Shown here: positions 14,703 to 30,052 of the stretch, in pieces
How positions within the stretch are numbered: the first letter of the stretch is position 1
Layout: every line of letters begins with the position of its first letter
NCBI RefSeq assembly: GCF_031292145.1
Contig: NZ_JARLHR010000120.1
Length of the DNA: 64,000 bases
Source: Clostridium sp.
GTDB taxonomy: Bacteria; Bacillota; Clostridia; Clostridiales; Clostridiaceae
Strand: one strand, 5' to 3'
Translations under genes and position numbers: made by a program
Notes under the pieces: model-generated
The model's database searches: none
What the model was told of the DNA's origin: nothing
The model's input: only the letters and a program-made list of their open reading frames with translations

Positions 14703-14892
14703 TTGCTCTAATTATTCGGATTTTATTGATGAGATTAACACGAACAAAATGACAAAAAATTTTAATAAAGATGAAGTAATTGATAATATTGCTATATCAT
14801 TAGACTATGATTGCTTAGAAGATATACCACACTTTGATACAAGAAATGATTTTTTGAAGAAATTGAAAGAAGCTTTGAGACTATATGATAAA

Positions 14893-14977
14893 CTGACTTA
14901 CGGACAGTAAAAAGGGCAAGCTAACCAACTATTTATCAAATCAGTATACCTAATCTAAATAGCTGTCCGTAAGTCAG
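14893..14977. repeat. 85-bp element bounded by a perfect 15-bp inverted repeat
   Basis: CTGACTTACGGACAG ...55 nt... CTGTCCGTAAGTCAG read directly. Confidence 0.85.
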
Positions 14978-15856
14978 ATCTGAAGATACTTTAAAATTTA
15001 GCAATGATTTAAAAACTGCAAGAACTCAATTAGAGGCTGAAAAAATAACTTCCATTTATGAAAAAACTCAAGCTGGAGAGCCTCTTGATTCCATTTTACA
15101 AATTTTTAATGTTGCATAAGAAACCTCCTTAGTTGTCTTAATGAAAATATTTATCTATAACTCTGCTCGTTTATAGAGCAATTTTATATGTTACATTTTT
15201 ATTTATATTATTAGCACTAAAACTTGTTTCTAAATTTATACTAAGACAAAAGATAACATTAATTAATTATTTCATGCAATGTTTATTTAAGGACAAAAAA
15301 CACTTCTATTAAATATACTTGATTATTTTTTCTTCAAATGATATTTTTGATCTTCCTTCATCCCTCCAATAATAGAAATATATATCAATATTTGTGAAGT
15401 AACCTATATAATAACCATTAAGTCTATAATTAAAAAATTATTTAAGATTAATGTATCATTATAAACAAATTTAACTTTTTCTTATATGCAATTTTAATTA
15501 TCGTGAGTAGCATTATATATGACGCAATAAAATTTAATTTAAACTGCTCAACAATCGTAATTAGGCTTGAACCAATAATTATGTTAAATAAAATTCTATA
15601 CAAACCATTATTTTTTTCTTCAAACTACCTATAAATAGATTATATTCATAGTATCTAAACTATTTATAACAGTATTATTCAACATAATATTTACCTGCTT
15701 GCTTAAATTCTGTGATCGAGTTGATGCACTTATGAATACTATAATTGCAAAAGATGTATTTCTTACAAAGCCAGGTAAATTAGTAAAAAAAATCAGCATA
15801 CTTAGTTGCAAAAAACACTACTAAATTTAATGTTAAATAGCCTATATAGCATAAAG

Positions 15857-15893
15857 ATAAGAGCCTTGAGTTTTATTTTCTCTCAGCTCTTAT
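15857..15893 (-). terminator. hairpin immediately after the distal ABC ATPase gene
   Basis: ATAAGAGC..TGAG/CTCA..GCTCTTAT stem 3 nt after the stop. The U-tract is weak. Confidence 0.35.
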
Positions 15894-15895
15894 TT

Positions 15896-16789
15896 TTATT
15901 TATAATTCTCCATTTCATTACATTCACTAATAGATATTACTTTTGCTAAATTTCTATTTAGTAATTCTTGAATTTTATTATAAAAACTAACGTTATTAAG
16001 ATTTTCTTTTATACGTAGTATATTTTTCTTATCTTCAATAATTGTATAATCAGAATAATACTCTTTTAAAAGACTAATATCATTTATTGCTTCTAAATAT
16101 ACATTTATATCTTTATCTAATTTTTTTTGATGATTAAGTTTTTGCACCTTATGATTTACAATTTGGTATTTTTCATTACATACTTCATTTAAAAAATTAC
16201 TATCATGACTTGTTATTATTATACTTGTGTTATAATAGTTAACCAATTGTAATAGATTTTCTTTAAATAAAATTTTATTTTCGGCATCTAATCCGTCTAC
16301 TGGTTCATCTAATATTATAAGATCTGGAAAATTTAATAACGATATAGAAAACATAAGCTTTTGCTTCATTCCTTTTGAATAGGTTTGAACTTTTTTATGT
16401 ATATAATTTTCCATGCTAAAGTTTTCAACCAAAGTATCTATTCTCTCTTTTATATTAATATCTAATCCTTTTAAAACTGCAAAATATCTAAGATTATCAT
16501 ATCCTGATAAGTTCCAATATAAATTTCTATTTCCATCACTCATTATGCTAATTTTTTTATTTAAATAATTTCCAATTTTATTAATATCATGCTCTAACAC
16601 CTTGCATATTCCACTTCTAGGCATTATTTGTCTACAAACAATTCTTATAAAAGTAGTTTTACCTGAACCATTCTTCCCAACTAGTCCAATAATTTTATTT
16701 TGAGGAATACACACAGACATATTTTCAAATACAATCTTATTCCCAAAGTTCAAATTAATATCATCCATTTTCACAATAAAATCACTCAT
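15896..16789 (-). CDS. ABC transporter ATP-binding protein (no adjacent intact permease)
   Basis: Walker A GKNGSGKTT, signature YSKGMKQKL, Walker B LIILDEP. Confidence 0.8.
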   Translation of the reverse strand: MSDFIVKMDDINLNFGNKIVFENMSVCIPQNKIIGLVGKNGSGKTTFIRIVCRQIMPRSGICKVLEHDINKIGNYLNKKISIMSDGNRNLYWNLSGYDNLRYFAVLKGLDINIKERIDTLVENFSMENYIHKKVQTYSKGMKQKLMFSISLLNFPDLIILDEPVDGLDAENKILFKENLLQLVNYYNTSIIITSHDSNFLNEVCNEKYQIVNHKVQKLNHQKKLDKDINVYLEAINDISLLKEYYSDYTIIEDKKNILRIKENLNNVSFYNKIQELLNRNLAKVISISECNEMENYK

Positions 16790-16820
16790 TATTCTATATA
16801 CCTTTCATAAAAATTATATA

Positions 16821-16882
16821 TTTTAAAAGTAACAGTAGCAGATAAAAGTTTCATATTTAAATTTTACCTACTACTGTTACTT
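16821..16882 (-). terminator. stem-loop after the precursor gene array (possible leaky terminator)
   Basis: Minus sense reads AAGTAACAGTAG ..32 nt loop.. CTACTGTTACTT followed by TTAAAATAT. Confidence 0.35.
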
Positions 16883-16917
16883 CTAACTTTCTATTATGTT
16901 ATTTGCATGTTTTTAGA

Positions 16918-17019
16918 TTAAGCTGAAAAATTGCTACCATTGTATCCAACATTTCCGCAAACAATTGCACCTACTGATACGCATCCTGCTTTTATGTCTT
17001 TCTTTAAGAAAAATAGCAT
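16918..17019 (-). CDS. RiPP precursor peptide, copy 1 (33 aa MLFFLKKDIKAGCVSVGAIVCGNVGYNGSNFSA)
   Basis: Translated by hand. RBS GGAGGTG sits 6 nt before the ATG. The ORF is below the track cutoff and lies in the rSAM operon. Confidence 0.75.
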   Translation of the reverse strand: MLFFLKKDIKAGCVSVGAIVCGNVGYNGSNFSA

Positions 17020-17065
17020 ACTAAACACCTCCTTCTTTCTTTTTTAATTGCTTGGACATTTTTAA

Positions 17066-17167
17066 TTAAGCTGAAAAGTTGCTACCATTGTATCCAACAT
17101 TTCCACAAACAATTGCACCTACTGATACGCATCCTGCTTTTATGTCTTTCTTTAAGAAAAATAACAT
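17066..17167 (-). CDS. RiPP precursor peptide, copy 2 (identical 33-aa product)
   Basis: Same frame and peptide as copy 1, with RBS GGAGGTA. Differs from copy 1 only at synonymous sites. Confidence 0.75.
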   Translation of the reverse strand: MLFFLKKDIKAGCVSVGAIVCGNVGYNGSNFSA

Positions 17168-17213
17168 ACTAAATACCTCCTTCTTTCTTTTTTAATTGCT
17201 TGGACATTTTTAA

Positions 17214-17315
17214 TTAAGCTGAAAAGTTGCTACCATTGTATCCAACATTTCCACAAACAATTGCACCTACTGATACACATCCTGCTTTTATGTCTTTCTT
17301 TAAGAAAAATAACAT
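17214..17315 (-). CDS. RiPP precursor peptide, copy 3 (identical 33-aa product)
   Basis: Same peptide, with RBS AAAGGAGA. One synonymous difference from copy 2. Confidence 0.75.
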   Translation of the reverse strand: MLFFLKKDIKAGCVSVGAIVCGNVGYNGSNFSA

Positions 17316-17424
17316 ACCTAATCGTCTCCTTTCCTAAAAATTAAAAATCTATTTAAATTTCAATATGGACACTCTTTATTCCACATGAAAATTAAAGCAG
17401 CTTTATTTTCTAAAATTAATAAAT

Positions 17425-17883
17425 CTAATGAACTTGTTCTTTCTTTTTTGAAATAAGTGTTGCAATCATTCCAGTGAAGTAAAATAACACCAAATAAATT
17501 GCAAATAAAAATACAAGTGAACTTATATCAAAACTTACATTTATATTACTTAGAGAAATACTCGAATTAGATTCTGCTAATTTTTTTGTGTTTTCAATAA
17601 TAATATCTATATTATCTTTAGATAAATTAATATATAAGAATATTCCTGTTATTAACATAGATATAACTGATATAATTGCAGAATATAAAATATTATCTTT
17701 CTTTGAAAAATTATTCTTTAAAACATTAATTCCATATATTACTGCATTTATAACTAGCGGAATGATTGTACTATACAAGAATAAAGTAAGTATATTTATT
17801 GTATCCATTTGTATTTCTATGCTAAAAAGACTAATTATTAAAACTAAAATCATAATAATATAATATTTAATAGATTTATTCAT
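17425..17883 (-). CDS. small polytopic membrane protein of unknown function (about 4 TM)
   Basis: 152-aa hydrophobic ORF between the CPBP gene and the precursor array. No recognisable motif. Confidence 0.6.
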   Translation of the reverse strand: MNKSIKYYIIMILVLIISLFSIEIQMDTINILTLFLYSTIIPLVINAVIYGINVLKNNFSKKDNILYSAIISVISMLITGIFLYINLSKDNIDIIIENTKKLAESNSSISLSNINVSFDISSLVFLFAIYLVLFYFTGMIATLISKKKEQVH

Positions 17884-17895
17884 AAAATCACCTCT

Positions 17896-18546
17896 TTAAA
17901 ATATTTTTAAAACCACTACTACATCATAAAACCAGTGAAGTAAAATTGATGATGATAGATTTTTAGTATATAAATACATACTTCCTAAAATAATTCCAAG
18001 TGGAACCCTAATAATTAAATTAGTTAAAATATCTTCATTTGAATGTAATATAAAAGCAAATATTAATGAACTAATTATCATAGAAACAATTTTACTTAAA
18101 TTTCTACTTAAAATATGGATAATTATGCCTCTTGATAAAATTTCTTCTGATATTCCAATAAACATAAAATGTATAAATACATAATAATTGCTTATAAGCG
18201 TATTGAATTTTTGGGCATATATAACTATAGATACAAACAAAATCAATATACTAATATTCATAATTATTGCTTTTCTATTTTTAAAACCCGACAAGCCTAT
18301 GTCATTAAAAGTTAATTTATCTGTAAATTTCAATATATATATTGGAATTAAAGCAAAACTAATAAAAATTGGTATTGATTGTGAAGCAAGTATAGAAATC
18401 AATGGTTGATCTATTCCAAACATTCCGACTAATAACGACATACTTATTAGCAATAATAGCAACATCAATGATGGTAAAACTGCTAACGCAATAACTTTTA
18501 ATACATTATTAAAAAAATCTTCTTTATTCCTAATTATATTTACCAT
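17896..18546 (-). CDS. CPBP (CAAX/Abi) family intramembrane metalloprotease
   Basis: Motifs EEILSRG (EExxxR), FAFILH (FxxxH) and HWFYD (HxxxD/N) in a polytopic membrane protein. Confidence 0.8.
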   Translation of the reverse strand: MVNIIRNKEDFFNNVLKVIALAVLPSLMLLLLLISMSLLVGMFGIDQPLISILASQSIPIFISFALIPIYILKFTDKLTFNDIGLSGFKNRKAIIMNISILILFVSIVIYAQKFNTLISNYYVFIHFMFIGISEEILSRGIIIHILSRNLSKIVSMIISSLIFAFILHSNEDILTNLIIRVPLGIILGSMYLYTKNLSSSILLHWFYDVVVVLKIF

Positions 18547-18547
18547 A

Positions 18548-19324
18548 TTAACTCACATCCATTTTTTTAAAACGCTTTTCAGCACGTTTTAATATTGTAA
18601 TTAAATATATAGCTGTAATTAGCAGATTTATAAAAACTAATAATACTGGATTAGATGCTTGCAAATATATCTTTTGATCAACCATATATGAAGGACTAAT
18701 ATATTTCAAATATGGAATATATGATAAAAGCTGTATTACTAAAAAGAATGCAACCGAAGATACACATACAATAAACGGCTTGAAGTATAACCCAAGTAAT
18801 ATGCAACCAGCAACAAAAATCAATATTTCTAAGCTATAAAAAAGCATTGAAATAAGTATTGTTGCGGTATCTAGAGAAAAGAAAATTTTCGATCCTATTT
18901 CAGAATTTGCAATAAAAATATAAAACACTAATATACTTATTAAATTGTAAGCAATAAAGTAAACAATAAATACTGCTGCTACTGCTAAGAATTTTGCATA
19001 CAAAAGCTTTTTTCTATTACATATATGAAGTAATTGCAATTTTATTTGGCCTGTTTCTATTTCGCTTGATACATTGTTTATAGATAGAAATAGAAATCCA
19101 AAAAAAGGCAAACCTAACAAAAACATTAAACACCACATTATGTTTACAAAATCCAAACATGTCATTAAAGTATTGTTGTTACTTGATACTTGTACAAAAG
19201 AAAATTTAAAATATATACTAATTCCGTAAAAAGCAGGAAGTATACATGTAGCAAATATAAAGTTTTTCATACTTCTTTTAGAAATTTTATACATTTCTAT
19301 ATTGATAATATTTAATAAACTCAT
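18548..19324 (-). CDS. ABC-2 type transporter permease (LanG/E-like)
   Basis: 258 aa with about 6 TM, adjacent to the ATPase. Confidence 0.65.
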   Translation of the reverse strand: MSLLNIINIEMYKISKRSMKNFIFATCILPAFYGISIYFKFSFVQVSSNNNTLMTCLDFVNIMWCLMFLLGLPFFGFLFLSINNVSSEIETGQIKLQLLHICNRKKLLYAKFLAVAAVFIVYFIAYNLISILVFYIFIANSEIGSKIFFSLDTATILISMLFYSLEILIFVAGCILLGLYFKPFIVCVSSVAFFLVIQLLSYIPYLKYISPSYMVDQKIYLQASNPVLLVFINLLITAIYLITILKRAEKRFKKMDVS

Positions 19325-19342
19325 ACTATACCCCCATATTAA

Positions 19343-20254
19343 TTAATTATTAATGAAAAACTGCATTAAAGAATCTTTCTGAACATCAATATCTTTAATC
19401 TTCAGATTGTTTCTTATGCAAAATTCTAATATTTCCGAAAGCAAATTGATATTATTGAATTTTATGCAACTATCTTTAATTGAAATTTCTTTTATTAAAT
19501 TTTTATCATTTTTTATCTTATTTATTATTTCATTATCTTGAATAGATCCATTTAAACATATGGTATAGAATTTATTACTGTTCAATTCACTGTATAACCC
19601 ATCATAAATTACTTTTTTATTTCCAATAACAAGTATTTTTTTACATAAGTCTTCCACTTCCTTTAGCTGGTGACTTGAAAATATAATTGATACCTTTTTT
19701 TCATTAGATAAATAGTGAATCTTTTCCTTTAACAGTTCTATACCAACTGGATCCAATCCAACAAATGGTTCATCTAAAATGAGTAGTTTAGGCTCTGAAA
19801 GTAACGACTGAACTAAACCTAGTCTTTGCTTCATTCCAAATGAAAAAGATTTAACCTTTTTATTATAAACATTCTCTAAATCTACAAATTTTAAAAGCTC
19901 CATTATCTTTTCTTTATATACAGCTTGTTTGACTTTTTTTATTCCCATCATTTGAATTTTTAAGTTATCATAGGCAGTCATATCCTCATAAAAACTGCAG
20001 TCTACAAGTGAACCTATACTATTCATAACATTTGGATCACTATGGTCTATTAATTTTTCTTCATAATAAATTTTCCCTGAAAAATCTTTATAAAGCCCCA
20101 AAATTGTTTTCATAAGTGTTGTTTTACCTGCTCCATTTTTACCAATAAGCCCTATAGTTTCTCCATATTTAATCGAAAAACTTATATTATCAAGTGCTAA
20201 AAATTCTCCAAATCTTTTTGTAACACCATCTACTGTTAATAGATTTTCACTCAT
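19343..20254 (-). CDS. ABC transporter ATP-binding protein (LanF-like)
   Basis: Walker A GKNGAGKTT, signature FSFGMKQRL, Walker B LLILDEP. Confidence 0.85.
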   Translation of the reverse strand: MSENLLTVDGVTKRFGEFLALDNISFSIKYGETIGLIGKNGAGKTTLMKTILGLYKDFSGKIYYEEKLIDHSDPNVMNSIGSLVDCSFYEDMTAYDNLKIQMMGIKKVKQAVYKEKIMELLKFVDLENVYNKKVKSFSFGMKQRLGLVQSLLSEPKLLILDEPFVGLDPVGIELLKEKIHYLSNEKKVSIIFSSHQLKEVEDLCKKILVIGNKKVIYDGLYSELNSNKFYTICLNGSIQDNEIINKIKNDKNLIKEISIKDSCIKFNNINLLSEILEFCIRNNLKIKDIDVQKDSLMQFFINN

Positions 20255-20266
20255 ATAAAACTCCTC

Positions 20267-21046
20267 CTAATAAACACCTAATGTACCATTTTTCTTTGTT
20301 TCATTATAAAAATATCTATATAAAATAATAGATAAAATAGCATATATTAAAGTATTAAGTATTGAAATTAATAAAATATTATTAAAATTAAAGGTAGCAG
20401 CTTTATTCAAAAATGATTGCATACAAGCTATTGTTCCACTAAAAGGCACTATCATATAAATTATTTTCTGTGTAACCTCTGTTAATGCTAAAAATGGTAA
20501 TCCAACCTCAATTATAAGAAGTATATTTAGAATATTAAAAATCGAGTCTAATTTTTTGAATCTAAGAAGTAACCCTACAAGGATCATTGATAATGATATA
20601 CCAGTAACAATTACAAGTACTAAGTTTGTAATCAAAAATAATACGCTTAAATTTACAGAACAAAATATACTATTTGCAATAAAAATCATCACAAACCATA
20701 TTGGAAGTGTAAATAATATACTGACTAATGTTCTTATAATTATTAATTCTGGAATAGAATAGCAGCTATTATAAATTTGTTCAAAGACTCCTATCTGAAT
20801 ATCTGTTCTAATACTTTGTGCTCCTACAATAACTACTGTTGTTATTATAGGTACTAACGAAAAGCTTAATATTTGCGATTTATCTCCAATTTTATTTATT
20901 CCAAACATAATTGCTGTAAATACAGTTATAAAAATTAATGTATTAAGAATAAATTCAAGTGGATATGCCATTGAATCTTTAAAATTTTTGTATACTTCTA
21001 TTTTTAAAAGCCTGAAATATCTTTTTAATATAATCATTACATTCAC
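20267..21046 (-). CDS. ABC-2 type transporter permease
   Basis: 259 aa with about 6 TM, between the rSAM gene and the ATPase. Confidence 0.65.
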   Translation of the reverse strand: MNVMIILKRYFRLLKIEVYKNFKDSMAYPLEFILNTLIFITVFTAIMFGINKIGDKSQILSFSLVPIITTVVIVGAQSIRTDIQIGVFEQIYNSCYSIPELIIIRTLVSILFTLPIWFVMIFIANSIFCSVNLSVLFLITNLVLVIVTGISLSMILVGLLLRFKKLDSIFNILNILLIIEVGLPFLALTEVTQKIIYMIVPFSGTIACMQSFLNKAATFNFNNILLISILNTLIYAILSIILYRYFYNETKKNGTLGVY

Positions 21047-21057
21047 ATTCCTTATAT

Positions 21058-22305
21058 TTAAGCAAGTTTAAGAATAGTTTTCATAAATTCATCAAAATAA
21101 ATTTTATTCATTTTACAATAACTATCTTTACAATCTACATTACCATTTGCAAAATAAGATCTTGCCCTACATCCACCTTTACATAAGTACATATATTCAC
21201 ACTCATTACATTCTTCTATATTTTCAACAGTTAGTCTCTGAAATTTTTTTGCAATTATATTATTATCCAGAATATCTTTTAAATTGCTTTCATCTAAATT
21301 TCCCATTTTAAATTTGGGGTCATGAAACATATGACATGGGTAAACAGACCCATCACTAGCAATACTTATATTATGTTTTCCTGCTCCACATGAATGGCCA
21401 ACATCAATAGAAAAATTTAATGGACTATCTTCAATTTGAATGCCATCTTCTTTTTGAAGTAAACATCTTACAATTTCATCAAAGTGTTCTTCTTTTAATA
21501 TATGTTCTTTAAACTCTTCATTGTTGCAGCTTAATATACTAAAGCTTATTCCAACACCTAGACTTTTAGATAATTTAATGTATTCATTTAACTTAGAATA
21601 GTTTTTACTATGAATTGTAGGGAGTATACTAACAGGTATTCCTGTTTCTTTTATAAGTTCTACTGTTGATACTACTTTTTCAAAAATGCCGTCATCTCTT
21701 ATAAATTTAGGATTATCTTTACTATATCCATCAATAGAAACTGCAATAGATGAGACGTATGCTTTTATACTTTCAAATAATTCTTTTTTATGTATAGTTC
21801 CATTTGTTATCATATCAATGGTTGGTATTTTCACTTCTTCCTTTGCATATCTTAATATTTCAACAATATCTTTTCTTAAAAGTGGTTCTCCTCCGGATAT
21901 AACAATCCTTTTTACACCTACACTACTTAATTCATTAAAATATTTTTTTATATTTTCATTAGATTTATCAAAACAATTGTTTCTTGTATTATCATATGAA
22001 TAACAACCTATACAATTTAAATTACATATATTAGTTACATGTAAGTATGCAGAATTAATTTCATATTCTTTTAACTTATAATCATCATTTAATAAAAAAT
22101 CATTTTCTTCTAAGGTCAATATAATCTCTCTTTGATTTTTGTCTAAATCATTTAAATTAATTTCACTGTTACTTTCTATTTTATTTATAATCTCATTTCC
22201 ATTTTCATTTAATCCCATAATCGATCCATTTGCAGTGTTTGCAATTAAAGTTATTCCTTTTATATTAAATTTTCTTACATCTTTTGAAAAAGCAAGTCTT
22301 TCCAT
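21058..22305 (-). CDS. radical SAM / SPASM-domain peptide maturase with N-terminal PqqD-like RRE
   Basis: CNLNCIGC (CX3CX2C) and GGEPLL. Full SPASM signature: CGAGKHNISIASDGSVYPC, then CNECEYMYLCKGGC, then CKDSYC. About 85 aa precede the core. Start moved to MERLAFS after GGAGGAG. Confidence 0.85.
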   Translation of the reverse strand: MERLAFSKDVRKFNIKGITLIANTANGSIMGLNENGNEIINKIESNSEINLNDLDKNQREIILTLEENDFLLNDDYKLKEYEINSAYLHVTNICNLNCIGCYSYDNTRNNCFDKSNENIKKYFNELSSVGVKRIVISGGEPLLRKDIVEILRYAKEEVKIPTIDMITNGTIHKKELFESIKAYVSSIAVSIDGYSKDNPKFIRDDGIFEKVVSTVELIKETGIPVSILPTIHSKNYSKLNEYIKLSKSLGVGISFSILSCNNEEFKEHILKEEHFDEIVRCLLQKEDGIQIEDSPLNFSIDVGHSCGAGKHNISIASDGSVYPCHMFHDPKFKMGNLDESNLKDILDNNIIAKKFQRLTVENIEECNECEYMYLCKGGCRARSYFANGNVDCKDSYCKMNKIYFDEFMKTILKLA

Positions 22306-22707
22306 TTTAATTTCTCCTCCACATAAATATATATCGATATATTGCAAATAAAAATTTGCATCTAATCAATTTGTTTTTAATACGTTTCAATCACTGCCTA
22401 AATAGTAACACAATCGCTCAATATTTTATCATTTAAGTAAAAAACAGATTGATATTTGTAATATATGTTCAAAAAAAAGCAACATTATACTTTTATTACT
22501 GATTTAATTACAAAAACAAAACTTATATATTTTTCTTACTATATTTAATGATTGATTTTTAATCTAGCTTTAATAATAAAAAACTTAGTGAAGCAATTAA
22601 TCTATGCTAAAAATTAGAACGTTTACCAAAAAATTGTTACATTCAAGATAATAACATCCTAATAAATCATTTATTACAAAATAAAGTACATAAATATCTT
22701 ATTTAAA

Positions 22708-22753
22708 ACAAAAAGTAGTTTGAAATATTAACTAATATTCAAACTACTTTTTG
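22708..22753 (-). terminator. rho-independent terminator after the LytTR regulator gene
   Basis: AAAAAGTAGTTTGAA..loop..TTCAAACTACTTTTT followed by GTTTT on the minus sense. Confidence 0.7.
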
Positions 22754-22797
22754 GGTACTATATGAAATTAAGCTAAAAACTCTTTAAATAAATAATT

Positions 22798-23523
22798 CTA
22801 TTTAAGCAATCCTCTAAGCAATCTAACGGCAACTAAGCATTCTTGTCCATTTATCATATAAATAACCCTATTATTTTTATCTATTTCTTTTATGTTATCT
22901 TTATTCACCAAAAATGATCTATGGCATCTATAGAAACGCTCATCAAGTTTCGCTTCAACATCTTTCAGCTTTGCATAAAATTCAATTTGCCTATCTACTG
23001 CATGAAGTATTACCTTATGTATAATGTTAGAAGTTTCAAAAAATAAAATCTTATTATATTCAATATTTATAATTTTATCTTCTGCTTTAATTGTAAAGTT
23101 TTTTTGCAGTCCTGTTGCTTTTGCTGAATACTTTTTATGAGCATTCAAAATGCATTCATGTATCCTTTCTTTTATAGTTTCAGGTTTATCCTTTATTATA
23201 TAATCCATTGCCTCAACCTTATATATAAAAGTCAAGTAACTCATTTCTGCATGAGTAGTTACAAAAACTATAAATCCCCTTGGATCATACTCTCTTATTG
23301 TTTCTGCAAGTTTTATGCCATTTAGCTCAGAATTTAAGTCTACATCCAAAAAGTACAATCCAGACATGTCATTATTCTCTAGATAATCTATAGTTTTTTC
23401 TGGACTTTCCGTAGACAACACAATTTTCATATCTAAATTTTCAATCATTATAATATCTTCAATAAGCTTTGTAATACTTTTTCTTTGAGATTCATTATCT
23501 TCACAAACTATTATACTTAGCAT
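22798..23523 (-). CDS. agrA: AgrA-like response regulator (receiver + LytTR DNA-binding domain)
   Basis: 241 aa with a CheY-like N-terminus (FLDVDL) and a LytTR-type C-terminus (FYRCHRSFLVN). Confidence 0.8.
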   Translation of the reverse strand: MLSIIVCEDNESQRKSITKLIEDIIMIENLDMKIVLSTESPEKTIDYLENNDMSGLYFLDVDLNSELNGIKLAETIREYDPRGFIVFVTTHAEMSYLTFIYKVEAMDYIIKDKPETIKERIHECILNAHKKYSAKATGLQKNFTIKAEDKIINIEYNKILFFETSNIIHKVILHAVDRQIEFYAKLKDVEAKLDERFYRCHRSFLVNKDNIKEIDKNNRVIYMINGQECLVAVRLLRGLLK

Positions 23524-23537
23524 TTTCTCATCTCCTC

Positions 23538-24863
23538 TTAGTTTAAGACATTAGTATTTGATATTTGTAAATTTTGAATAAATTCTTCATTTTGAATAGA
23601 TGTATCAATAGATATATTTTTATAATTATTTACAATTTCTTTTAAATTACTTAATCCAAGCCCCCTATTAGAACCCTTAGTTGAAAAACCGCTCTCAAAC
23701 ATCTTATAAATTGGAGGATTTTCTTTAAGACAAGAATTTATAATCAAAATAATTATAGAATTTTTCTTATTTATAATACCAATTTTTAAACTAGGAGATT
23801 CACATAAAAGTGCTGCATCAATTGCATTGTCTAAAAGAATTCCAATAATTCTACACAAATCTATAATATCTATATTTATAAATTCTACTGCTTCCATAAT
23901 ATCAATAAATACATTTACGCCTAATTCCTGTGCCCTGATAACTTTTGATGATAATACACCTTTTAATTCTGTAACTTTAATATGTTGAAGCAATTCCAAC
24001 TTATAATTTTTATTTGAAATCTCTTTGTTCATAAGCAATATTCTCTTATTGAAAAATTCATTCAGTCCATTTAAATCCTTTTGCTCAATATATCCTTTCA
24101 TTGAAGACAAAATATTTACATAATCATGCCTAAATTTTCTCATATCATTATACATACTCTCTAAATTAGAAGTGTATTCTTGTAAGTTATCAAATTCCAT
24201 CTTTTTAGTTTTAAAATCCATTTCCTTCTTTAAATTAATAACAAGAATATATGTCATTATAAGTGTGCAAAAGAAATATGATAAAAATAATACACTATCA
24301 ACATAAATAATAAGATTATCAACATTGGAAAATTTAATCAACATTGCATTTACATAAAATATTAAACTTGTTAATCCAATGTTGATTAAAATTAATAGCA
24401 CAAATTTATTTTTAAAATTGATTTCTTTTAAATTAAATCTTGATCGCTTTAATAAAAAAGCAATAAATGAACTAATTACAAAAGCAATAGAACATAATAC
24501 AAAATGCATACATATAAATACAATTTTGTTATTTAGAATCTGATGAGCATCTTGATTAAATATTTTTATAAAGATCGCACCTTGTATTGTATCTGATAGT
24601 ACAAAAATTATAATTGAAAAAATTATAGAAATAAAATTTTCAATAATTTTTTTGTTTTCCTTAAAAAGCAAAAGCATCATAACAATTAAAAATAAAGGTA
24701 TTCCAAGTATTTCAATTTTTACTGATATAATACCTGCTGTTAAATAAACGATTAAAAAATTTTTAATAAAATTTTTCTTCTTAAACTCTATTATTTTTAA
24801 ATTATAAGTTACAAAAACTAATGTAAACATAGATATTAATAAAGTAAATAGTTTTATAGCCAT
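23538..24863 (-). CDS. agrC: AgrC-like (HPK10) sensor histidine kinase
   Basis: 441 aa with 6-7 N-terminal TM segments, H-box KFRHDYVN, and GHKL N/G boxes (LLDNAIDA, GLGLSN). Confidence 0.8.
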   Translation of the reverse strand: MAIKLFTLLISMFTLVFVTYNLKIIEFKKKNFIKNFLIVYLTAGIISVKIEILGIPLFLIVMMLLLFKENKKIIENFISIIFSIIIFVLSDTIQGAIFIKIFNQDAHQILNNKIVFICMHFVLCSIAFVISSFIAFLLKRSRFNLKEINFKNKFVLLILINIGLTSLIFYVNAMLIKFSNVDNLIIYVDSVLFLSYFFCTLIMTYILVINLKKEMDFKTKKMEFDNLQEYTSNLESMYNDMRKFRHDYVNILSSMKGYIEQKDLNGLNEFFNKRILLMNKEISNKNYKLELLQHIKVTELKGVLSSKVIRAQELGVNVFIDIMEAVEFINIDIIDLCRIIGILLDNAIDAALLCESPSLKIGIINKKNSIIILIINSCLKENPPIYKMFESGFSTKGSNRGLGLSNLKEIVNNYKNISIDTSIQNEEFIQNLQISNTNVLN

Positions 24864-24977
24864 AAATCCTCCAAGTTATTTGTAAAATAATAAATTACAT
24901 GAAAAATAGGTAAATTTATTTACTATTTTATAATATTACCTATTATTTTACAATAAAAAAATAGGTTAGTAATTAAC

Positions 24978-25148
24978 CTATTCTTCATCTATCATTATTA
25001 GTTCCTCTGGAAATTTAGTTTCATAAAATCCTCCACACTCACAACATTTATCTGCAGATGATTCTGCAAGTTTTACTGATAATTCTCCAAGCTTATGTAA
25101 TGACACATCAATTAAATTTTCAACAAATGACTTTTTTATATCGTTCAT
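24978..25148 (-). CDS. agrD: AgrD-type autoinducing peptide precursor (56 aa)
   Basis: MNDIKKSFVENLIDVSLHKLGELSVKLAESSADKCCECGGFYETKFPEELIMIDEE. It has an amphipathic N-terminus, a Cys-containing core and a PEEL acidic tail. RBS GGAAGGAGA. Overlaps the agrB 3' end by 29 nt. Confidence 0.7.
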   Translation of the reverse strand: MNDIKKSFVENLIDVSLHKLGELSVKLAESSADKCCECGGFYETKFPEELIMIDEE

Positions 25149-25752
25149 AATTTTTATATCTCCTTCCAAATAATTTATATATAATTGGAGTTATAGTGAT
25201 TGATTCACACAATACTCCATAACTAATGCAAAATTTTAAAGCAGAATTATTTATACACAGTGCTAGAATCATTAAAATCCCAGCTGATAATAATGCCTTA
25301 ATTTTAAGTCTCTTTCTTAAATTCCTTCCTACTAATGGTCTTGCTTCTGTATCAGCTGGTGCATATAAATAGAGTAATAATGCTGTTCCAAAAAGCATAA
25401 GTAAAACTTTATCATTTGTTATAGCTAAAATTTTAGATATATATACTCCAGTAAAAAAACATATGGAAGTTGTAACTGTACAGCTTGTACTACTTTTAGC
25501 ATGCATTCCAAATGCATAACATCTTATAAAACTAAAGCTTAACATAATAAATAGAGTTTCTTTAAATATTCCTAAAATCTCAGCTATCACAAGAATCAAA
25601 ACTATTTTAGATAAATTAATAATCAATACTTCCAATCCATATTTCATTTTTTTAAATTTTAGTTCATCTATTTCAGCTTCATTGCTAATTTTATTTGCTA
25701 ACTTAAAAGCAATTCTCTCTGACAAATTTTTTTCAACTAAATCTCTCTCCAT
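25120..25752 (-). CDS. agrB: AgrB-type AIP-processing membrane endopeptidase
   Basis: 210 aa and polytopic. FGMHAKSSTSC places His and Cys 7 residues apart, as with the catalytic pair in characterised AgrB. Confidence 0.75.
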   Translation of the reverse strand: MERDLVEKNLSERIAFKLANKISNEAEIDELKFKKMKYGLEVLIINLSKIVLILVIAEILGIFKETLFIMLSFSFIRCYAFGMHAKSSTSCTVTTSICFFTGVYISKILAITNDKVLLMLFGTALLLYLYAPADTEARPLVGRNLRKRLKIKALLSAGILMILALCINNSALKFCISYGVLCESITITPIIYKLFGRRYKNYERYKKVIC

Positions 25753-25789
25753 ATTTATCCCTCGCTTCGATTAAATTTATATATCCTTT

Positions 25790-25820
25790 CTTAACTTATT
25801 GCATTCGCTTATGGAACTTA
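25790..25820 (-). promoter_or_regulatory. candidate LytTR (AgrA-like) direct-repeat boxes upstream of agrB
   Basis: Minus sense reads TAAGTTCCA-N13-TAAGTTAAG, 22 bp start to start. The proximal box resembles the AgrA consensus ACAGTTAAG. Confidence 0.3.
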
Positions 25821-25832
25821 TCGCTAGAAGTG

Positions 25833-25991
25833 TTATTTGCTTTTAATTTTCAAACAAATATATTGAAACCCTAAAATAACAAACATTCCTCCAAGGATAA
25901 TTCCTTTAATAAATAAATTTATTTGAATAAATATAGTCATTGTAAAAAAAAGTAAATTTAATATAATCAACAAGATTAAGTAATTTCTCAT
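25833..25991 (-). CDS. 52-aa hydrophobic small ORF upstream of agrB
   Basis: MRNYLILLIILNLLFFTMTIFIQINLFIKGIILGGMFVILGFQYICLKIKSK, with a weak RBS (AGAGG). Confidence 0.3.
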   Translation of the reverse strand: MRNYLILLIILNLLFFTMTIFIQINLFIKGIILGGMFVILGFQYICLKIKSK

Positions 25992-26189
25992 AAAACTACC
26001 TCTATACCTCTTAATGTTGGATATGTAAGGTATATGAATTTAGGTATTAATTTGTGTAAATTTATTATTTCTTAGATATCCATTAATCTTATTGTAATAC
26101 ATTAATTTATATATATCCATTTATTATAATAAATGACTTTCTTTTAGTAATAAACGTATGTAATATCTTGTCATTTACAAAAAAGGGAA

Positions 26190-29744: not shown

Positions 29745-30052
29745 AATTTATATATTATATATATTGTGATGAATAGGAGTATTAGTAATAAATATATCCT
29801 AGGCACAATAAAAAAATACGATGCATCTTTGGTCTATTATTTTATTATGTGCCTTACAGAGAGCTGTTGGTCGGTGTAAAACAGTGTTATATTATTATGA
29901 ACTTGCCTAGGAGCTTACTTGTTTAAAGCAAGTACGGTAAACCCGTTAAAGTTTTTGAGTGAGAAGAATTAATTTAATTTATTTCTTCTAATTAAGAGTG
30001 GTACCACGGAATTATGCTTTCGTCTCTTTGTTTTAGAGATGAAGGCTTTTTT
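29745..30052 (+). promoter_or_regulatory. T-box riboswitch leader (probable Leu specifier CUU) with terminator
   Basis: GA motif TGATGA, AGTA box, AG bulge AGAGAG, distal loop GGTGTAA, F-box CCGTTA and T-box AATTAAGAGTGGTACCACGG at 29990-30009. The terminator is GCTTTCGTCTCT/AGAGATGAAGGC plus T6 at 30016-30052. CTT at 29902-29904 sits in the expected specifier position. Confidence 0.85.
29802..29853. mobile_element. family-A MITE-like element, copy A5 (short), inside T-box Stem I
   Basis: GGCACAATAAAAAAATA...TATTATTTTATTATGTGCC, flanked by CTA/TTA. Confidence 0.7.

What the first reader, a model, noticed from the sequence alone, without database searches (positions are those of the whole stretch)
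15896..25991. agr quorum-sensing cassette coupled to an skf-like radical-SAM RiPP island
All genes are co-oriented on the minus strand. First comes agrB, agrD, an AgrC-like kinase and a LytTR regulator, ending at a terminator at 22708-22753. A roughly 400-bp promoter region then leads into a second operon. That operon encodes an rSAM/SPASM maturase with an N-terminal RRE, an ABC-2 permease, an ABC ATPase, a second ABC-2 permease, a CPBP/CAAX protease, a 4-TM protein of unknown function, three identical 33-aa two-Cys peptide genes and a further ABC ATPase. The combination of rSAM thioether-type maturase, CAAX-type protease and ABC transporter is the architecture of the Bacillus subtilis skf (sporulation killing factor) locus. 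Here, however, the precursor is much shorter, is triplicated and sits at the distal end of the operon. A dedicated agr module is attached, which suggests density-dependent production of a modified peptide such as a bacteriocin, cannibalism factor or second signal. I do not recognise the core peptide from any characterised sactipeptide or ranthipeptide. Both flanks (14.7-15.9 kb and 25.8-26.5 kb) are AT-rich, non-coding or decayed, consistent with an accessory island.
Basis: partly seen in the sequence, partly recalled or inferred. Interest (0 to 1): 0.9.

Follow-up and report, generated by a model that had tools for sequence, protein, structure and literature searches.

The report
Agr-controlled radical-SAM peptide gene cluster
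A Clostridium chromosome carries a cell-density-sensing (agr) cassette next to an operon with a matching promoter design, and that operon makes, processes and exports a short two-cysteine peptide modified by a radical-SAM enzyme, from a family that is widespread in gut bacteria but has no name or known chemistry.

Summary
On the minus strand, a complete agr cassette (a small membrane ORF, then agrB, agrD, agrC and agrA) ends at a strong terminator. It is followed by an operon for an rSAM/SPASM maturase with an RRE-like N-terminus, two ABC systems, a CPBP protease, a 4-TM protein and three identical 33-aa peptide genes.

The peptide belongs to a conserved, unnamed family, called "MLF peptides" here: MLF-x8-10-C-x3-G-x3-5-C-x3-G. 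Members lie beside homologues of this maturase in 36 of 85 related loci from Firmicutes and Coriobacteriia. The maturase resembles CteB, SuiB and StsB rather than SkfB, so "skf-like" holds only for gene content.

Three results support agr control:
- The agr autoregulatory promoter design, conserved in orthologous cassettes, recurs once more in the 64-kb window, upstream of the maturase, with identical spacing. About 0.06 such sites are expected by chance.
- LytTR regulators or full agr systems accompany the family in 11 independent loci. One locus has AgrA-type repeats driving agrD-agrB-precursor.
- Orthologous agr cassettes flank other biosynthetic clusters: lanthipeptide, ThiF-type and PKS/NRPS.

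The chemistry (probably two small thioether rings), the bioactivity and the regulation have not been tested experimentally. I rate this a new variant of a known kind, a quorum-sensing-regulated rSAM RiPP.

The parts
26091..26156 (-). Candidate AgrA-dependent autoregulatory promoter of the agr cassette: CGTTTATTAC-N11-CATTTATTAT-N29-TACAAT
   Evidence: The two 10-bp direct repeats, their 21-bp period and the -10 hexamer are conserved upstream of the small ORF in orthologous cassettes L173, L177, L178, L179 and L180. The window site scores 26/26 against that template.
25833..25991 (-). orf52, a 52-aa membrane peptide and first gene of the agr cassette
   Evidence: Homologues of 50-52 aa (M[KR]NYLILL...FIKGII[IL]GG...FQYI) lie directly upstream of agrB in L174, L178, L179 and L177. 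It matches no family.
25120..25752 (-). agrB (AgrD-processing membrane peptidase)
   Evidence: PF04647 E 1.4e-39; NF002210 250.7 bits. Orthologues at 64-77% identity occur in C. beijerinckii and C. diolis.
24978..25148 (-). agrD (autoinducer precursor, 56 aa)
   Evidence: TIGR04223 scores 20.2 bits against a cut-off of 19. Orthologues conserve CC-x2-GG-x-Y followed by ETKFPEELL.
23538..24863 (-). agrC-like sensor histidine kinase
   Evidence: PF14501 E 4.6e-19; NF046015 AgrC E 1.5e-77, 261.6 bits, below the staphylococcal equivalog cut-off of 500.
22798..23523 (-). agrA-like response regulator (receiver + LytTR)
   Evidence: PF04397 E 2e-21, PF00072 E 5e-15, NF046049 AgrA E 1e-69.
22708..22753 (-). 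Intrinsic terminator after agrA
   Evidence: Hairpin of -19.1 kcal/mol, z -6.8, followed by UUUUUGUUUU.
22402..22467 (-). Candidate AgrA-dependent promoter of the RiPP operon: CATATATTAC-N11-TGTTTTTTAC-N29-TACTAT
   Evidence: This is the only other site in the window (both strands) scoring at least 19/26 against the ortholog-derived template. It scores 21/26 with identical spacings. A Markov null gives 0.057 sites of at least 21 per window. The same architecture lies upstream of the maturase in L092 (22/26) and L085 (20/26).
21058..22305 (-). RRE-like / radical SAM / SPASM peptide maturase (415 aa)
   Evidence: PF04055, PF13186 and PF13353. CX3CX2C at C94/C98/C101 plus seven invariant C-terminal Cys. 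AF2 model pLDDT 91, with an N-terminal three-strand/helix domain. Foldseek best matches are CteB 5why/5wgg (E 3e-22), then SuiB and anSME. phmmer against PDB: CteB 6.7e-18, SkfB 1.8e-12.
20267..21046 (-). Polytopic membrane protein (perm1), putative permease partner of the distal ATPase
   Evidence: No Pfam or NCBIfam match. Its homologue in L005 lies immediately after the homologue of the distal ATPase. The single-sequence AF2 model was unusable, pLDDT 49.
19343..20254 (-). ABC ATPase 1
   Evidence: PF00005 E 3e-29; best NCBIfam match is TIGR03740, lantibiotic-protection ABC ATPase, E 4e-55, below its cut-off.
18548..19324 (-). ABC-2-type permease (perm2)
   Evidence: Weak matches to PF12679 (E 0.0026) and PF12730 (E 0.036). 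Homologues follow an ABC ATPase in 30 family loci.
17896..18546 (-). CPBP (CAAX-type) intramembrane glutamic protease
   Evidence: PF02517 E 2e-15. The EExxxR motif (SEEILSR) and HxxxD motif (HWFYD) are visible in the translation. Homologues occur in 32 family loci.
17425..17883 (-). Conserved 4-TM protein of unknown function (TM4), candidate immunity or accessory protein
   Evidence: No family match. Homologues lie next to the CPBP gene in 17 family loci.
17214..17315 (-). Precursor peptide copy 1 (MLFFLKKDIKAGCVSVGAIVCGNVGYNGSNFSA)
   Evidence: GGAG ribosome-binding site 8 nt upstream. Member of the MLF peptide family.
17066..17167 (-). Precursor peptide copy 2 (identical product)
   Evidence: 148-bp tandem unit with 97% matches. 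Differences from the other copies are only synonymous.
16918..17019 (-). Precursor peptide copy 3 (identical product)
16823..16886 (-). Strong hairpin after the precursor array (terminator or attenuator)
   Evidence: -30.4 kcal/mol, z -9.0, followed by UUUU. An analogous hairpin follows the precursor in L096.
15896..16789 (-). ABC ATPase 2, probable partner of perm1
   Evidence: PF00005 E 6e-25. Its homologue in L005 (40% identity) directly precedes the perm1 homologue.

Best explanation
The locus is a two-module system.

**Module 1: the sensor.** This is an agr quorum-sensing cassette, orf52-agrB-agrD-agrC-agrA.
- AgrB processes AgrD into a cyclic autoinducer, derived from the conserved CC-x2-GG-x-Y segment.
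- AgrC senses the autoinducer and phosphorylates AgrA.
- AgrA binds two 10-bp direct repeats spaced 21 bp apart, upstream of orf52 (autoinduction). It also binds a weaker copy of the same promoter design upstream of the maturase gene.

**Module 2: the output.** This is a RiPP operon.
- Three identical 33-aa precursors supply substrate.
- The short N-terminal MLF... leader (about 12 residues) is probably held by the RRE-like domain of the radical-SAM/SPASM enzyme.
- That enzyme most likely makes two small, side-by-side thioether rings from Cys13 and Cys21. The invariant glycines four residues downstream are the most likely acceptors.
- The CPBP protease is the candidate leader peptidase.
- Two ABC systems and the 4-TM protein export the product and/or protect the producer.
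- The product is most likely a density-dependent bacteriocin or fratricide-type peptide.

**Status of each step.** Shown by sequence: gene identities, the peptide family and its linkage to the maturase, and the shared promoter architecture. Inferred: AgrA binding, the thioether chemistry and acceptor sites, the protease role of CPBP, and antimicrobial activity.
For: **Gene identities**
-.

**The maturase is a peptide maturase**
- AF2 model pLDDT 91, with an N-terminal strand/helix domain.
- Best fold matches are CteB and SuiB, both RRE-rSAM-SPASM enzymes.
- The best full-length NCBIfam alignment is to the StsB sactisynthase family.

**The precursor is real and conserved**
- The three copies differ only by synonymous changes.
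- MLF-type peptides lie on the same strand next to maturase homologues in 36 of 85 loci.
- About 35 further short members come from exhaustive searches, with invariant M-L-F, C, G(+4), C, G(+4).

**Regulation**
- The promoter template was derived only from orthologous agr cassettes. It finds exactly one further site in the window, upstream of the maturase on the correct strand, with identical spacings: 21/26, against 0.057 sites expected per window.
- The same design lies upstream of the maturase in L092 and L085, and between agrA and the ThiF cargo in L177.
- A LytTR regulator lies near the maturase in 16 of 84 family loci (11 independent) and in 0 of 84 control rSAM loci.
- AgrB is adjacent in L012, L095 and L096.
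- L096 has three 21-bp CCAGTTAGG-type repeats driving agrD-agrB-precursor.
- L086 has TTTAATACA-N12-TTTAATACA upstream of its CPBP-...-maturase operon.

**Precedents**
- Clostridial genes directly downstream of agr can be Agr-controlled effectors (PMC10301443).
- Streptosactin is a quorum-sensing-controlled sactipeptide with two unnested small rings, one of which ends on Gly (PMC8172795 and PMC13361665).
Against: - There are no expression, binding or mass-spectrometry data.
- A strong terminator separates agrA from the operon, so coupling must act in trans.
- The second repeat of the operon promoter is degenerate: 8/10 in the window and 6/10 in L085.
- The two closest relatives (82-83% identical maturase) have no agr cassette directly upstream.
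- The maturase falls far below the cut-off of every curated family. Examples are StsB at 117 bits against 625 and PapB at 94 against 340. Its chemistry therefore cannot be read from homology.
- CPBP proteins can serve as bacteriocin immunity proteins rather than leader peptidases (own knowledge).
- The jackhmmer search found no CPBP, ABC-2, TM4 or LytTR homologue in the loci carrying the MLFYS-type (Coriobacteriia-type) peptides.
Confidence: 0.6

Rival explanations
1. The modified MLF peptide is mainly a signal, a second pheromone, rather than a toxin. In the many loci that have a LytTR two-component system but no agrBD, that kinase would sense the mature peptide. In this window the peptide would be a downstream signal in an agr cascade.
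For: Most family loci with a kinase/LytTR pair lack AgrB and AgrD: L005, L007, L022, L086-91, L097, L119, L126 and L131. L086 has LytTR-type repeats upstream of the biosynthetic operon, as expected for peptide autoinduction.
Against: Dedicated ABC-2 'protection-type' ATPase/permease pairs, a CPBP gene and a conserved TM4 protein accompany the peptide. L005 has four divergent precursors in one locus. Both are typical of bacteriocin loci. The two roles are not exclusive: nisin-type autoinduction combines them (own knowledge).
Confidence: 0.15
2. The adjacency is incidental. The agr cassette regulates other traits such as sporulation or metabolism, and the RiPP operon is controlled independently.
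For: There is a strong terminator after agrA. The closest relatives, L085 and L092, carry the operon without an adjacent agr cassette. Orthologous agr cassettes occur in many different neighbourhoods.
Against: The operon promoter copies the agr autoregulatory promoter, with the same box spacing and the same distance to the -10, at a level expected 0.057 times per window. The relatives without adjacent agr keep the same boxes. Recurrent, independently arranged agr/LytTR linkage is seen across the family.
Confidence: 0.08
3. The maturase does not make thioethers. It installs another radical-SAM modification, such as epimerisation, a C-C or C-O cross-link, or methylation. The cysteines would then form a disulfide or bind metal.
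For: No curated maturase family is matched above its cut-off. Top NCBIfam scores are spread over NirJ2, AhbD, WgkB (Lys-Trp cross-link), StsB and ScmE. SuiB, a C-C cross-linking enzyme, is the second-best fold match.
Against: The only invariant core residues are two Cys, each followed by Gly at +4. No Trp, Lys, Tyr or Arg is conserved that could serve C-C chemistry. The best sequence and fold match is the sactisynthase CteB.
Confidence: 0.15

Closest known systems
Streptosactin (GggA/GggB = StsA/StsB) of Streptococcus thermophilus, a quorum-sensing-regulated sactipeptide
   Same: Both have an RRE-rSAM-SPASM maturase, and StsB is the only curated family that aligns over the full length. Both have a short precursor with two Cys. 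In streptosactin these form two unnested small sactionine rings, Cys25-Ser28 and Cys31-Gly34. Production depends on cell density through a peptide quorum-sensing system, and a protease removes the leader (PMC8172795 and PMC13361665).
   Different: The maturase scores 117 bits against the StsB cut-off of 625, so it is not a member. Regulation is by agr/LytTR rather than shp/rgg. The motif is C-x3-G twice, rather than C-x2-S and C-x2-G. The leader is only about 12 residues and starts with the invariant MLF. CPBP, two ABC-2 systems and TM4 are part of this cluster. The chemistry here is untested.
CteB / thermocellin (SCIFF-type thioether peptide maturase; PDB 5wgg, 5why)
   Same: It is the best sequence match (E 6.7e-18) and the best fold match (E 3e-22). 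It has the same three-part architecture: an N-terminal RRE, the rSAM core, and a SPASM region with two auxiliary clusters.
   Different: Identity is only about 22%. The precursor is not a SCIFF peptide (no NCBIfam match). The PapB ranthipeptide model scores 94 bits against a cut-off of 340.
Bacillus subtilis skf (sporulation killing factor) locus
   Same: The gene content is similar: a thioether-type rSAM enzyme, a CPBP/CAAX-type membrane protease and an ABC transporter next to a small Cys-containing precursor. The product may likewise act on kin cells.
   Different: SkfB is a weaker match than CteB or anSME. No SkfB model is among the 25 best NCBIfam matches shown, out of 81. The precursor is 33 aa and matches no NCBIfam model. 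No homologue of the skf thioredoxin-like SkfH was looked for, and no ORF of the operon is left unassigned (own knowledge for skf gene content). Regulation is by agr, whereas skf is under Spo0A (own knowledge).
agr operons with an Agr-controlled effector gene immediately downstream in Clostridium (LanM-like CA_C0082 of C. acetobutylicum)
   Same: It is a clostridial agrBDCA cassette with a peptide-modification-type gene directly downstream whose expression is Agr-controlled (PMC10301443).
   Different: CA_C0082 is a lone, catalytically degenerate LanM-like protein that affects granulose and sporulation. It is not a complete RiPP pathway with precursor, maturase, protease and transporters.
Three-component regulation of class II bacteriocins and autoinduced lantibiotics (AgrC-type kinase + LytTR regulator binding 9-10-bp direct repeats about 21 bp apart)
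   Same: A LytTR regulator and an AgrC-type kinase are encoded beside the bacteriocin genes. Direct repeats with a 21-bp period lie upstream of the operons.
   Different: In this window the signal is a separate AgrB-processed AgrD peptide, not a double-glycine pheromone. The product is rSAM-modified. (The description of the known systems is own knowledge.)

Membership tests
agr quorum-sensing system (AgrBDCA) | AgrB membrane peptidase | tested here: met
   PF04647 scores 135.8 bits against a cut-off of 23. NF002210 scores 250.7, below its equivalog cut-off of 282.
agr quorum-sensing system (AgrBDCA) | AgrD precursor encoded next to agrB, with a Cys-containing core and a conserved charged C-terminal tail | tested here: met
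   TIGR04223 scores 20.2 bits against a cut-off of 19. The gene overlaps the end of agrB. Orthologues conserve CC-x2-GG-x-Y / ETKFPEELL.
agr quorum-sensing system (AgrBDCA) | AgrC-type (HATPase_c_5) kinase and LytTR response regulator | tested here: met
   PF14501 E 4.6e-19; PF04397 E 2e-21 plus PF00072.
agr quorum-sensing system (AgrBDCA) | Autoregulatory promoter with paired direct repeats for the LytTR regulator | tested here: met
   CGTTTATTAC-N11-CATTTATTAT-N29-TACAAT at 26156-26091, conserved in five orthologous cassettes. Binding itself is not testable here.
agr quorum-sensing system (AgrBDCA) | Production of a cyclic thiolactone or lactone autoinducer | not testable with these tools
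   This needs mass spectrometry of culture supernatant. The ring size is ambiguous from the alignment.
Sactipeptides | Cys sulfur to alpha-carbon thioether in the mature peptide | not testable with these tools
   This needs HR-MS/MS and NMR of the modified peptide.
Sactipeptides | RRE-rSAM-SPASM sactisynthase encoded beside a Cys-containing precursor | tested here: met
   CteB is the best PDB sequence and fold match. The maturase has seven invariant SPASM-region Cys. Conserved 2-Cys peptides are adjacent in 36 of 85 loci.
Streptosactin / StsB (GggB) family | Maturase reaches the curated StsB model cut-off | tested here: not met
   NF045574 scores 117.4 bits against a cut-off of 625.
Ranthipeptides (SCIFF / PapB type) | PapB- or SCIFF-type maturase and a SCIFF-type precursor | tested here: not met
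   NF047865 PapB scores 94 bits against 340. The peptide matches no NCBIfam model at E up to 1.
skf (sporulation killing factor) system | SkfB-type maturase | tested here: not met
   SkfB (6efn) has E 1.8e-12 and is weaker than CteB (6.7e-18) and anSME. It ranks 18th in the fold search.
skf (sporulation killing factor) system | SkfA-type precursor | tested here: not met
   The 33-aa peptide matches no NCBIfam family. It belongs to its own MLF family.
skf (sporulation killing factor) system | CPBP/CAAX-type protease and ABC transporter in the operon | tested here: met
   PF02517 E 2e-15; two PF00005 ATPases.
Anaerobic sulfatase maturases (the non-RiPP alternative) | Maturase reaches the anSME model cut-off and lacks a peptide-recognition domain | tested here: not met
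   TIGR03942 scores 90.9 bits against 349. The anSME structures align without the N-terminal domain: 365 aligned columns against about 440 for CteB.

The most novel reading that the evidence does not exclude
MLF peptides are a new RiPP class with a cross-link pattern not yet described: two tandem Cys-to-Gly(+4) rings, or a non-thioether chemistry. The product would act as both toxin and autoinducer for the LytTR systems that so often accompany it. In addition, the nearly invariant N-terminus Met-Leu-Phe would be released as a formylated leader fragment of the fMLF type, the classic ligand of the neutrophil formyl-peptide receptor. Bacterial quorum sensing in gut Firmicutes and Coriobacteriia would then be directly visible to host innate immunity. 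Nothing here excludes this. The MLF conservation may equally just be the RRE recognition motif.
Probability: 0.05. Interest if true: 0.9.

Novelty: new variant of a known kind. Interest (0 to 1): 0.68.

Why it matters
- **An unnamed RiPP family.** It defines a precursor family (MLF-...-C-x3-G-...-C-x3-G) and its maturase clade. They are common in gut Firmicutes and Coriobacteriia: one member was seen on 163 contigs and another on 212. The family matches no Pfam or NCBIfam model and was not found in the searchable literature.
- **It probably escapes standard genome mining.** The antiSMASH rules listed in PMC13289728 call sactipeptides by subtilosin, thuricin or SkfA models, RaS-RiPPs by an Rgg domain, and ranthipeptides by SCIFF. 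None of these applies here. By inference, such loci would be labelled only as 'autoinducer' or 'RRE-containing'.
- **A testable regulatory circuit.** The agr autoregulatory promoter design is reused upstream of the RiPP operon. This extends the streptococcal theme of quorum-sensing-controlled rSAM peptides from shp/rgg to agr.
- **A portable switch.** The same agr lineage sits beside lanthipeptide, ThiF-type and PKS/NRPS clusters in other clostridia. This suggests a portable quorum-sensing switch with exchangeable cargo. Adding synthetic autoinducer could therefore be a way to wake silent clusters.

Tried and rejected
1. **An apparent AgrA box between orf52 and agrB.** The exact 10-bp repeat GCGATAAGTT-N12-GCAATAAGTT (25824-25793) first looked like the AgrA box. 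I rejected it. It is absent from orthologous cassettes, where that spacer is only about 38 nt, and nothing similar lies upstream of the maturase.
2. **A degenerate motif.** [AC]TA[AG][AG]TT paired at 21-22 nt gave three intergenic pairs. It was derived from the same sites, so the test is circular, and I did not use it.
3. **Generic scans.** The sigma-70 and terminator scan was uninformative in this AT-rich DNA. It found fewer promoter-like sites than shuffles did and missed both hairpins.
4. **The peptide against curated libraries.** It matched no NCBIfam family. The peptide itself was not scanned against Pfam.
5. **Literature search for family sequences.** Strings such as MLFFSKK, SYGKNW and others returned only an unrelated scorpion paper.
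6. **First profile search.** I solved this by putting a 52-aa ORF first in the alignment.
7. **The streptosactin paper.** It is not held by PubMed id, so I used reviews instead.
8. **perm1.** It shows no significant similarity to perm2 and no Pfam match at E 10. The single-sequence AF2 model had pLDDT 49, so I made no fold search.
9. **PF05402 (PqqD/RRE).** It is not detected in the maturase even at E 10.
10. **Coriobacteriia-type loci.** Listing ORFs in these high-GC loci gave too many spurious frames to define their accessory genes.
11. **Compositional island test.** GC is uniform across the locus and its flanks.

Full report
**1. What is in the sequence**

The upstream block is a canonical agr set:
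- AgrB: PF04647, E 1e-39.
- A 56-aa AgrD that overlaps the end of agrB: TIGR04223, 20.2 bits against a cut-off of 19.
- An AgrC-type kinase: HATPase_c_5.
- A receiver-LytTR regulator.

The block ends at a hairpin of -19.1 kcal/mol (z -6.8) followed by a U-run at 22753-22708.

The downstream block encodes, in order:
- an rSAM/SPASM protein (22305-21058);
- a polytopic membrane protein with no family match;
- an ABC ATPase;
- a weakly ABC-2-like permease;
- a CPBP protease (PF02517, E 2e-15);
- a 152-aa 4-TM protein;
- three 33-aa ORFs, each with a good ribosome-binding site, in a 148-bp tandem array;
- a very stable hairpin (-30.4 kcal/mol, z -9.0);
- a second ABC ATPase.

The three peptide ORFs differ at four positions, and all four changes are synonymous. 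That is what a translated, selected product should look like.

The host is a low-GC Clostridium. NCBI names the identical proteins 'Clostridium sp.'. The locus lies between a shikimate-pathway operon and an MFS transporter gene, a cardiolipin synthase gene and a T-box/leuS unit. GC content is uniform, at 0.19-0.28, across the locus and its flanks. The 'AT-rich flanks' argument for an island therefore does not hold.

**2. The maturase**

An AlphaFold model built on 43 homologues is confident (pLDDT 91). It shows an N-terminal three-strand plus helices domain ahead of the rSAM barrel and the SPASM region.

The best Foldseek matches are the sactisynthase CteB (E 3e-22) and then SuiB. Both are RRE-rSAM-SPASM peptide maturases. 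anSME, PqqE and SkfB follow. Sequence search of the PDB gives the same order: CteB 6.7e-18, anSME about 1e-12, SkfB 1.8e-12.

The homologue alignment has an invariant CX3CX2C and seven invariant C-terminal cysteines, enough for two auxiliary clusters.

No curated family is reached. The only model aligning over the full length, including the N-terminal domain, is StsB (streptosactin), at 117 bits against a cut-off of 625. PF05402 is not detected, so the RRE call rests on fold and not on the Pfam model.

**3. The precursor is a member of a conserved, unnamed family**

Scans of genome and metagenome collections with the maturase alignment returned 160 loci. Together with loci fetched by exact protein look-up, 85 loci (counting this window) carry a homologue of the maturase.

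In 36 of these 85 loci, a short ORF on the same strand lies directly before or after the maturase gene. It starts with MLF and carries C-x3-G-x3-5-C-x3-G. Two styles are seen:
- a Firmicutes style, for example MLFKSKKVTAPGCISAGFYICVSYGKNF, which the window peptide resembles;
- a Coriobacteriia style, for example MLFYSEADPRAICPIIGFGGICIAPGV, which ends one residue after the second glycine.

Profile searches of 5.8 billion proteins and of 1.84 billion representatives found about 35 further short members. Nearly all are 27-63 aa, and none carries a name other than 'hypothetical protein'. One member was seen on 163 contigs and another on 212.

The invariant residues are M1, L2, F3, the two Cys, and the Gly four residues after each Cys. 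No NCBIfam model matches the peptide. No paper in the searchable library contains these sequences.

**4. The rest of the operon is the family's standard kit**

Across the Firmicutes loci the recurring set is precursor(s), maturase, ABC ATPase plus ABC-2 permease, CPBP and the TM4 protein. A fused ABC exporter is often present too.

L005 has the order maturase, four divergent precursors, ATPase2, perm1, ATPase1, perm2, CPBP, TM4. This shows that the window's 'further ABC ATPase' is the partner of the first membrane protein. The window is simply a permuted arrangement, with the precursors and that ATPase moved to the end.

**5. Is the agr cassette functionally coupled?**

Adjacency alone is weak evidence, for two reasons. 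A terminator intervenes. Also, the two closest relatives (82-83% identical maturase; L085 and L092) have a divergent 50-aa membrane ORF upstream instead of agrA. Three independent lines of evidence nevertheless support coupling.

(a) *Promoter architecture.*
- Orthologues of this AgrB (64-77% identity) were traced to their contigs.
- Most of these cassettes start with a conserved 50-52-aa membrane ORF. No such ORF was found in L175 or L180.
- Upstream of that ORF (or of agrB in L180), the cassettes in L173/L174, L177, L178, L179 and L180 share CGTTTATTAC-N11-C[GA]TTTATTA[TC]-N29-TA[CT]AAT. No site scoring at least 20 was found in L175.
- The template was derived without using the RiPP promoter. 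In the whole window, on both strands, it finds only two sites scoring at least 19/26. One is the agr promoter itself at 26156-26091 (26/26). The other is 22467-22402 (21/26), which lies on the correct strand, 96 nt upstream of the maturase start, with exactly the same spacings.
- A second-order Markov null gives 0.057 sites of at least 21 per window.
- The same design precedes the maturase in L092 (22/26) and L085 (20/26). It also lies between agrA and the downstream ThiF-type genes in L177.
- The weaker second repeat at the operon promoter would fit a lower-affinity, later-firing target. This resembles staphylococcal P3 versus P2 (own knowledge).

(b) *Family-wide linkage.*
- A LytTR regulator lies within the fetched flank in 16 of 84 family loci (11 independent species or arrangements). 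It is found in 0 of 84 control loci brought in by the same scans but carrying unrelated rSAM genes. The control loci are, however, taxonomically different.
- AgrB is adjacent in L012, L095 and L096.
- L096 has the order agrA-agrC-agrD-agrB-precursor-hairpin-maturase. Three 21-bp direct repeats (ATTATTCCAGTTAGGAAATAA) lie upstream of agrD. This gene order differs from the window's, which implies an independent fusion.
- L086, from a common gut organism, has TTTAATACA-N12-TTTAATACA upstream of its CPBP-TM4-maturase-precursor operon.

(c) *The agr lineage keeps company with biosynthetic clusters.* The orthologous cassette sits next to:
- a class I lanthipeptide cluster in C. beijerinckii;
- a LanM/flavoprotein/S8-protease set in C. 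diolis, there also beside the shikimate operon;
- a ThiF-type set;
- a PKS/NRPS cluster;
- an AfsA/tautomerase set.

One further example has no obvious cluster.

There is also a clostridial precedent for an Agr-controlled effector gene directly downstream of agr (PMC10301443).

**6. Most likely mechanism**

At high cell density the AgrD-derived autoinducer activates AgrC and AgrA. AgrA then drives its own cassette and, from a weaker copy of the same promoter, the RiPP operon.

The triplicated precursor gives high substrate dosage. The hairpin after the array probably sets the ratio of operon transcript to the distal ATPase.

The RRE-like domain probably binds the short MLF leader. The enzyme most likely makes two thioether links from Cys13 and Cys21. 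The acceptors cannot be read from sequence. The only universally conserved candidates are the glycines at +4; the serine at +2 is absent from the Coriobacteriia style.

The nearest characterised analogue is streptosactin. It has two unnested small sactionine rings, one of which ends on Gly. It is controlled by quorum sensing and acts on the producer's kin (PMC8172795 and PMC13361665).

CPBP is the candidate leader peptidase, although CPBP proteins can also be immunity factors (own knowledge). The ABC-2 pairs and TM4 would export the product and/or protect the producer.

Steps shown by sequence: gene identities, family membership and promoter similarity. Steps inferred: AgrA binding, the chemistry, the cleavage and the bioactivity.

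**7. Comparison, novelty and verdict**

The locus works like a quorum-sensing-regulated rSAM RiPP of the streptococcal type, but it is wired to agr. In gene content it resembles skf. It is not a member of the StsB, PapB/SCIFF, SkfB or anSME families by their curated models.

The antiSMASH rules listed in PMC13289728 call sactipeptides, RaS-RiPPs and ranthipeptides through models that are absent here. That probably explains why the family has stayed unnamed. Large microbiome RiPP surveys also note many uncharacterised rSAM-type families (PMC11953309).

I rate it a new variant of a known kind, of solid interest. It offers an uncharacterised but widespread precursor/maturase family, a concrete and testable agr-to-RiPP promoter link, and an agr lineage that appears to act as a portable switch for different clusters.

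The main caveats are that nothing has been tested experimentally, the chemistry is open, and subscription-journal literature could not be searched.

Noticed in passing
window 17315-17307, 17167-17159, 17019-17011 (first three codons of each precursor); family members: Nearly every member of the peptide family, across Firmicutes and Coriobacteriia, starts with Met-Leu-Phe. Rare exceptions start MIF, MLA or MIKFF. Formyl-Met-Leu-Phe is the classic ligand of the neutrophil formyl-peptide receptor (own knowledge). The conservation may simply be the maturase recognition motif.
   Followed up: partly
window 25793-25824 (minus strand), between orf52 and agrB: An exact 10-bp direct repeat, GCGATAAGTT-N12-GCAATAAGTT, is the only such pair in the window. 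It is absent from orthologous agr cassettes, where this spacer is only about 38 nt. It might be a second, window-specific regulator site or an internal promoter for agrB. It remains unexplained.
   Followed up: partly
window 25833-25991 (minus strand): A 52-aa hydrophobic ORF is conserved as the first gene of this agr cassette lineage (L174, L177, L178, L179). It lies downstream of the AgrA-type boxes, so the unit is orf52-agrBDCA. No function or family match is known.
   Followed up: partly
L085 1-640 and L092 1-660: The two closest relatives of the RiPP operon have no agr cassette upstream. They do have a divergent 50-aa membrane ORF vaguely like orf52. AgrA-type box pairs face both ways in the shared intergenic region (scores 20-22 of 26). 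This suggests control by an unlinked agr system.
   Followed up: partly
L173, L175, L177, L179, L180 (loci around orthologous agrB genes): The same agr lineage lies next to a class I lanthipeptide cluster, a LanM-type cluster, a ThiF-type set, an AfsA/tautomerase set and a PKS/NRPS cluster in different clostridia. It looks like a conserved quorum-sensing cassette with exchangeable biosynthetic neighbours. In C. diolis it also adjoins the shikimate operon, as in this window.
   Followed up: partly
window 14911-15895: About 1 kb between the 53-aa ORF at 14749-14910 and the distal ABC ATPase has no ORF longer than 60 aa in any frame and no Rfam match. It could be decayed coding sequence or a long regulatory/3' region.
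   Followed up: partly
L096 5550-6641 and 15943-16242: The agr plus MLF-peptide cluster of this metagenomic contig is bracketed by two related ORFs sharing ...LKAWERYIRKHINTIREENNIKRENFEFICAVHEKDINYHTHILFWDK... This hints that the whole unit sits on a mobile element or duplicated module.
   Followed up: no
window 29812-30030 (plus strand): A T-box leader (RF00230, 97.8 bits) lies upstream of the leucyl-tRNA synthetase gene at 30083-32533. This is ordinary housekeeping regulation.
   Followed up: no
L005 11290-11757: A rumen Lachnospiraceae locus carries four different MLF-type precursors in a row after one maturase. This suggests a multi-peptide product set or substrate-tolerant maturation.
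   Followed up: no
P0142 (585 aa): The top hit of the exhaustive peptide-profile search is a long, highly repetitive protein with eleven TGCISFGV-like stretches. It looks like a translated DNA repeat rather than a relative of the peptide family.
   Followed up: no
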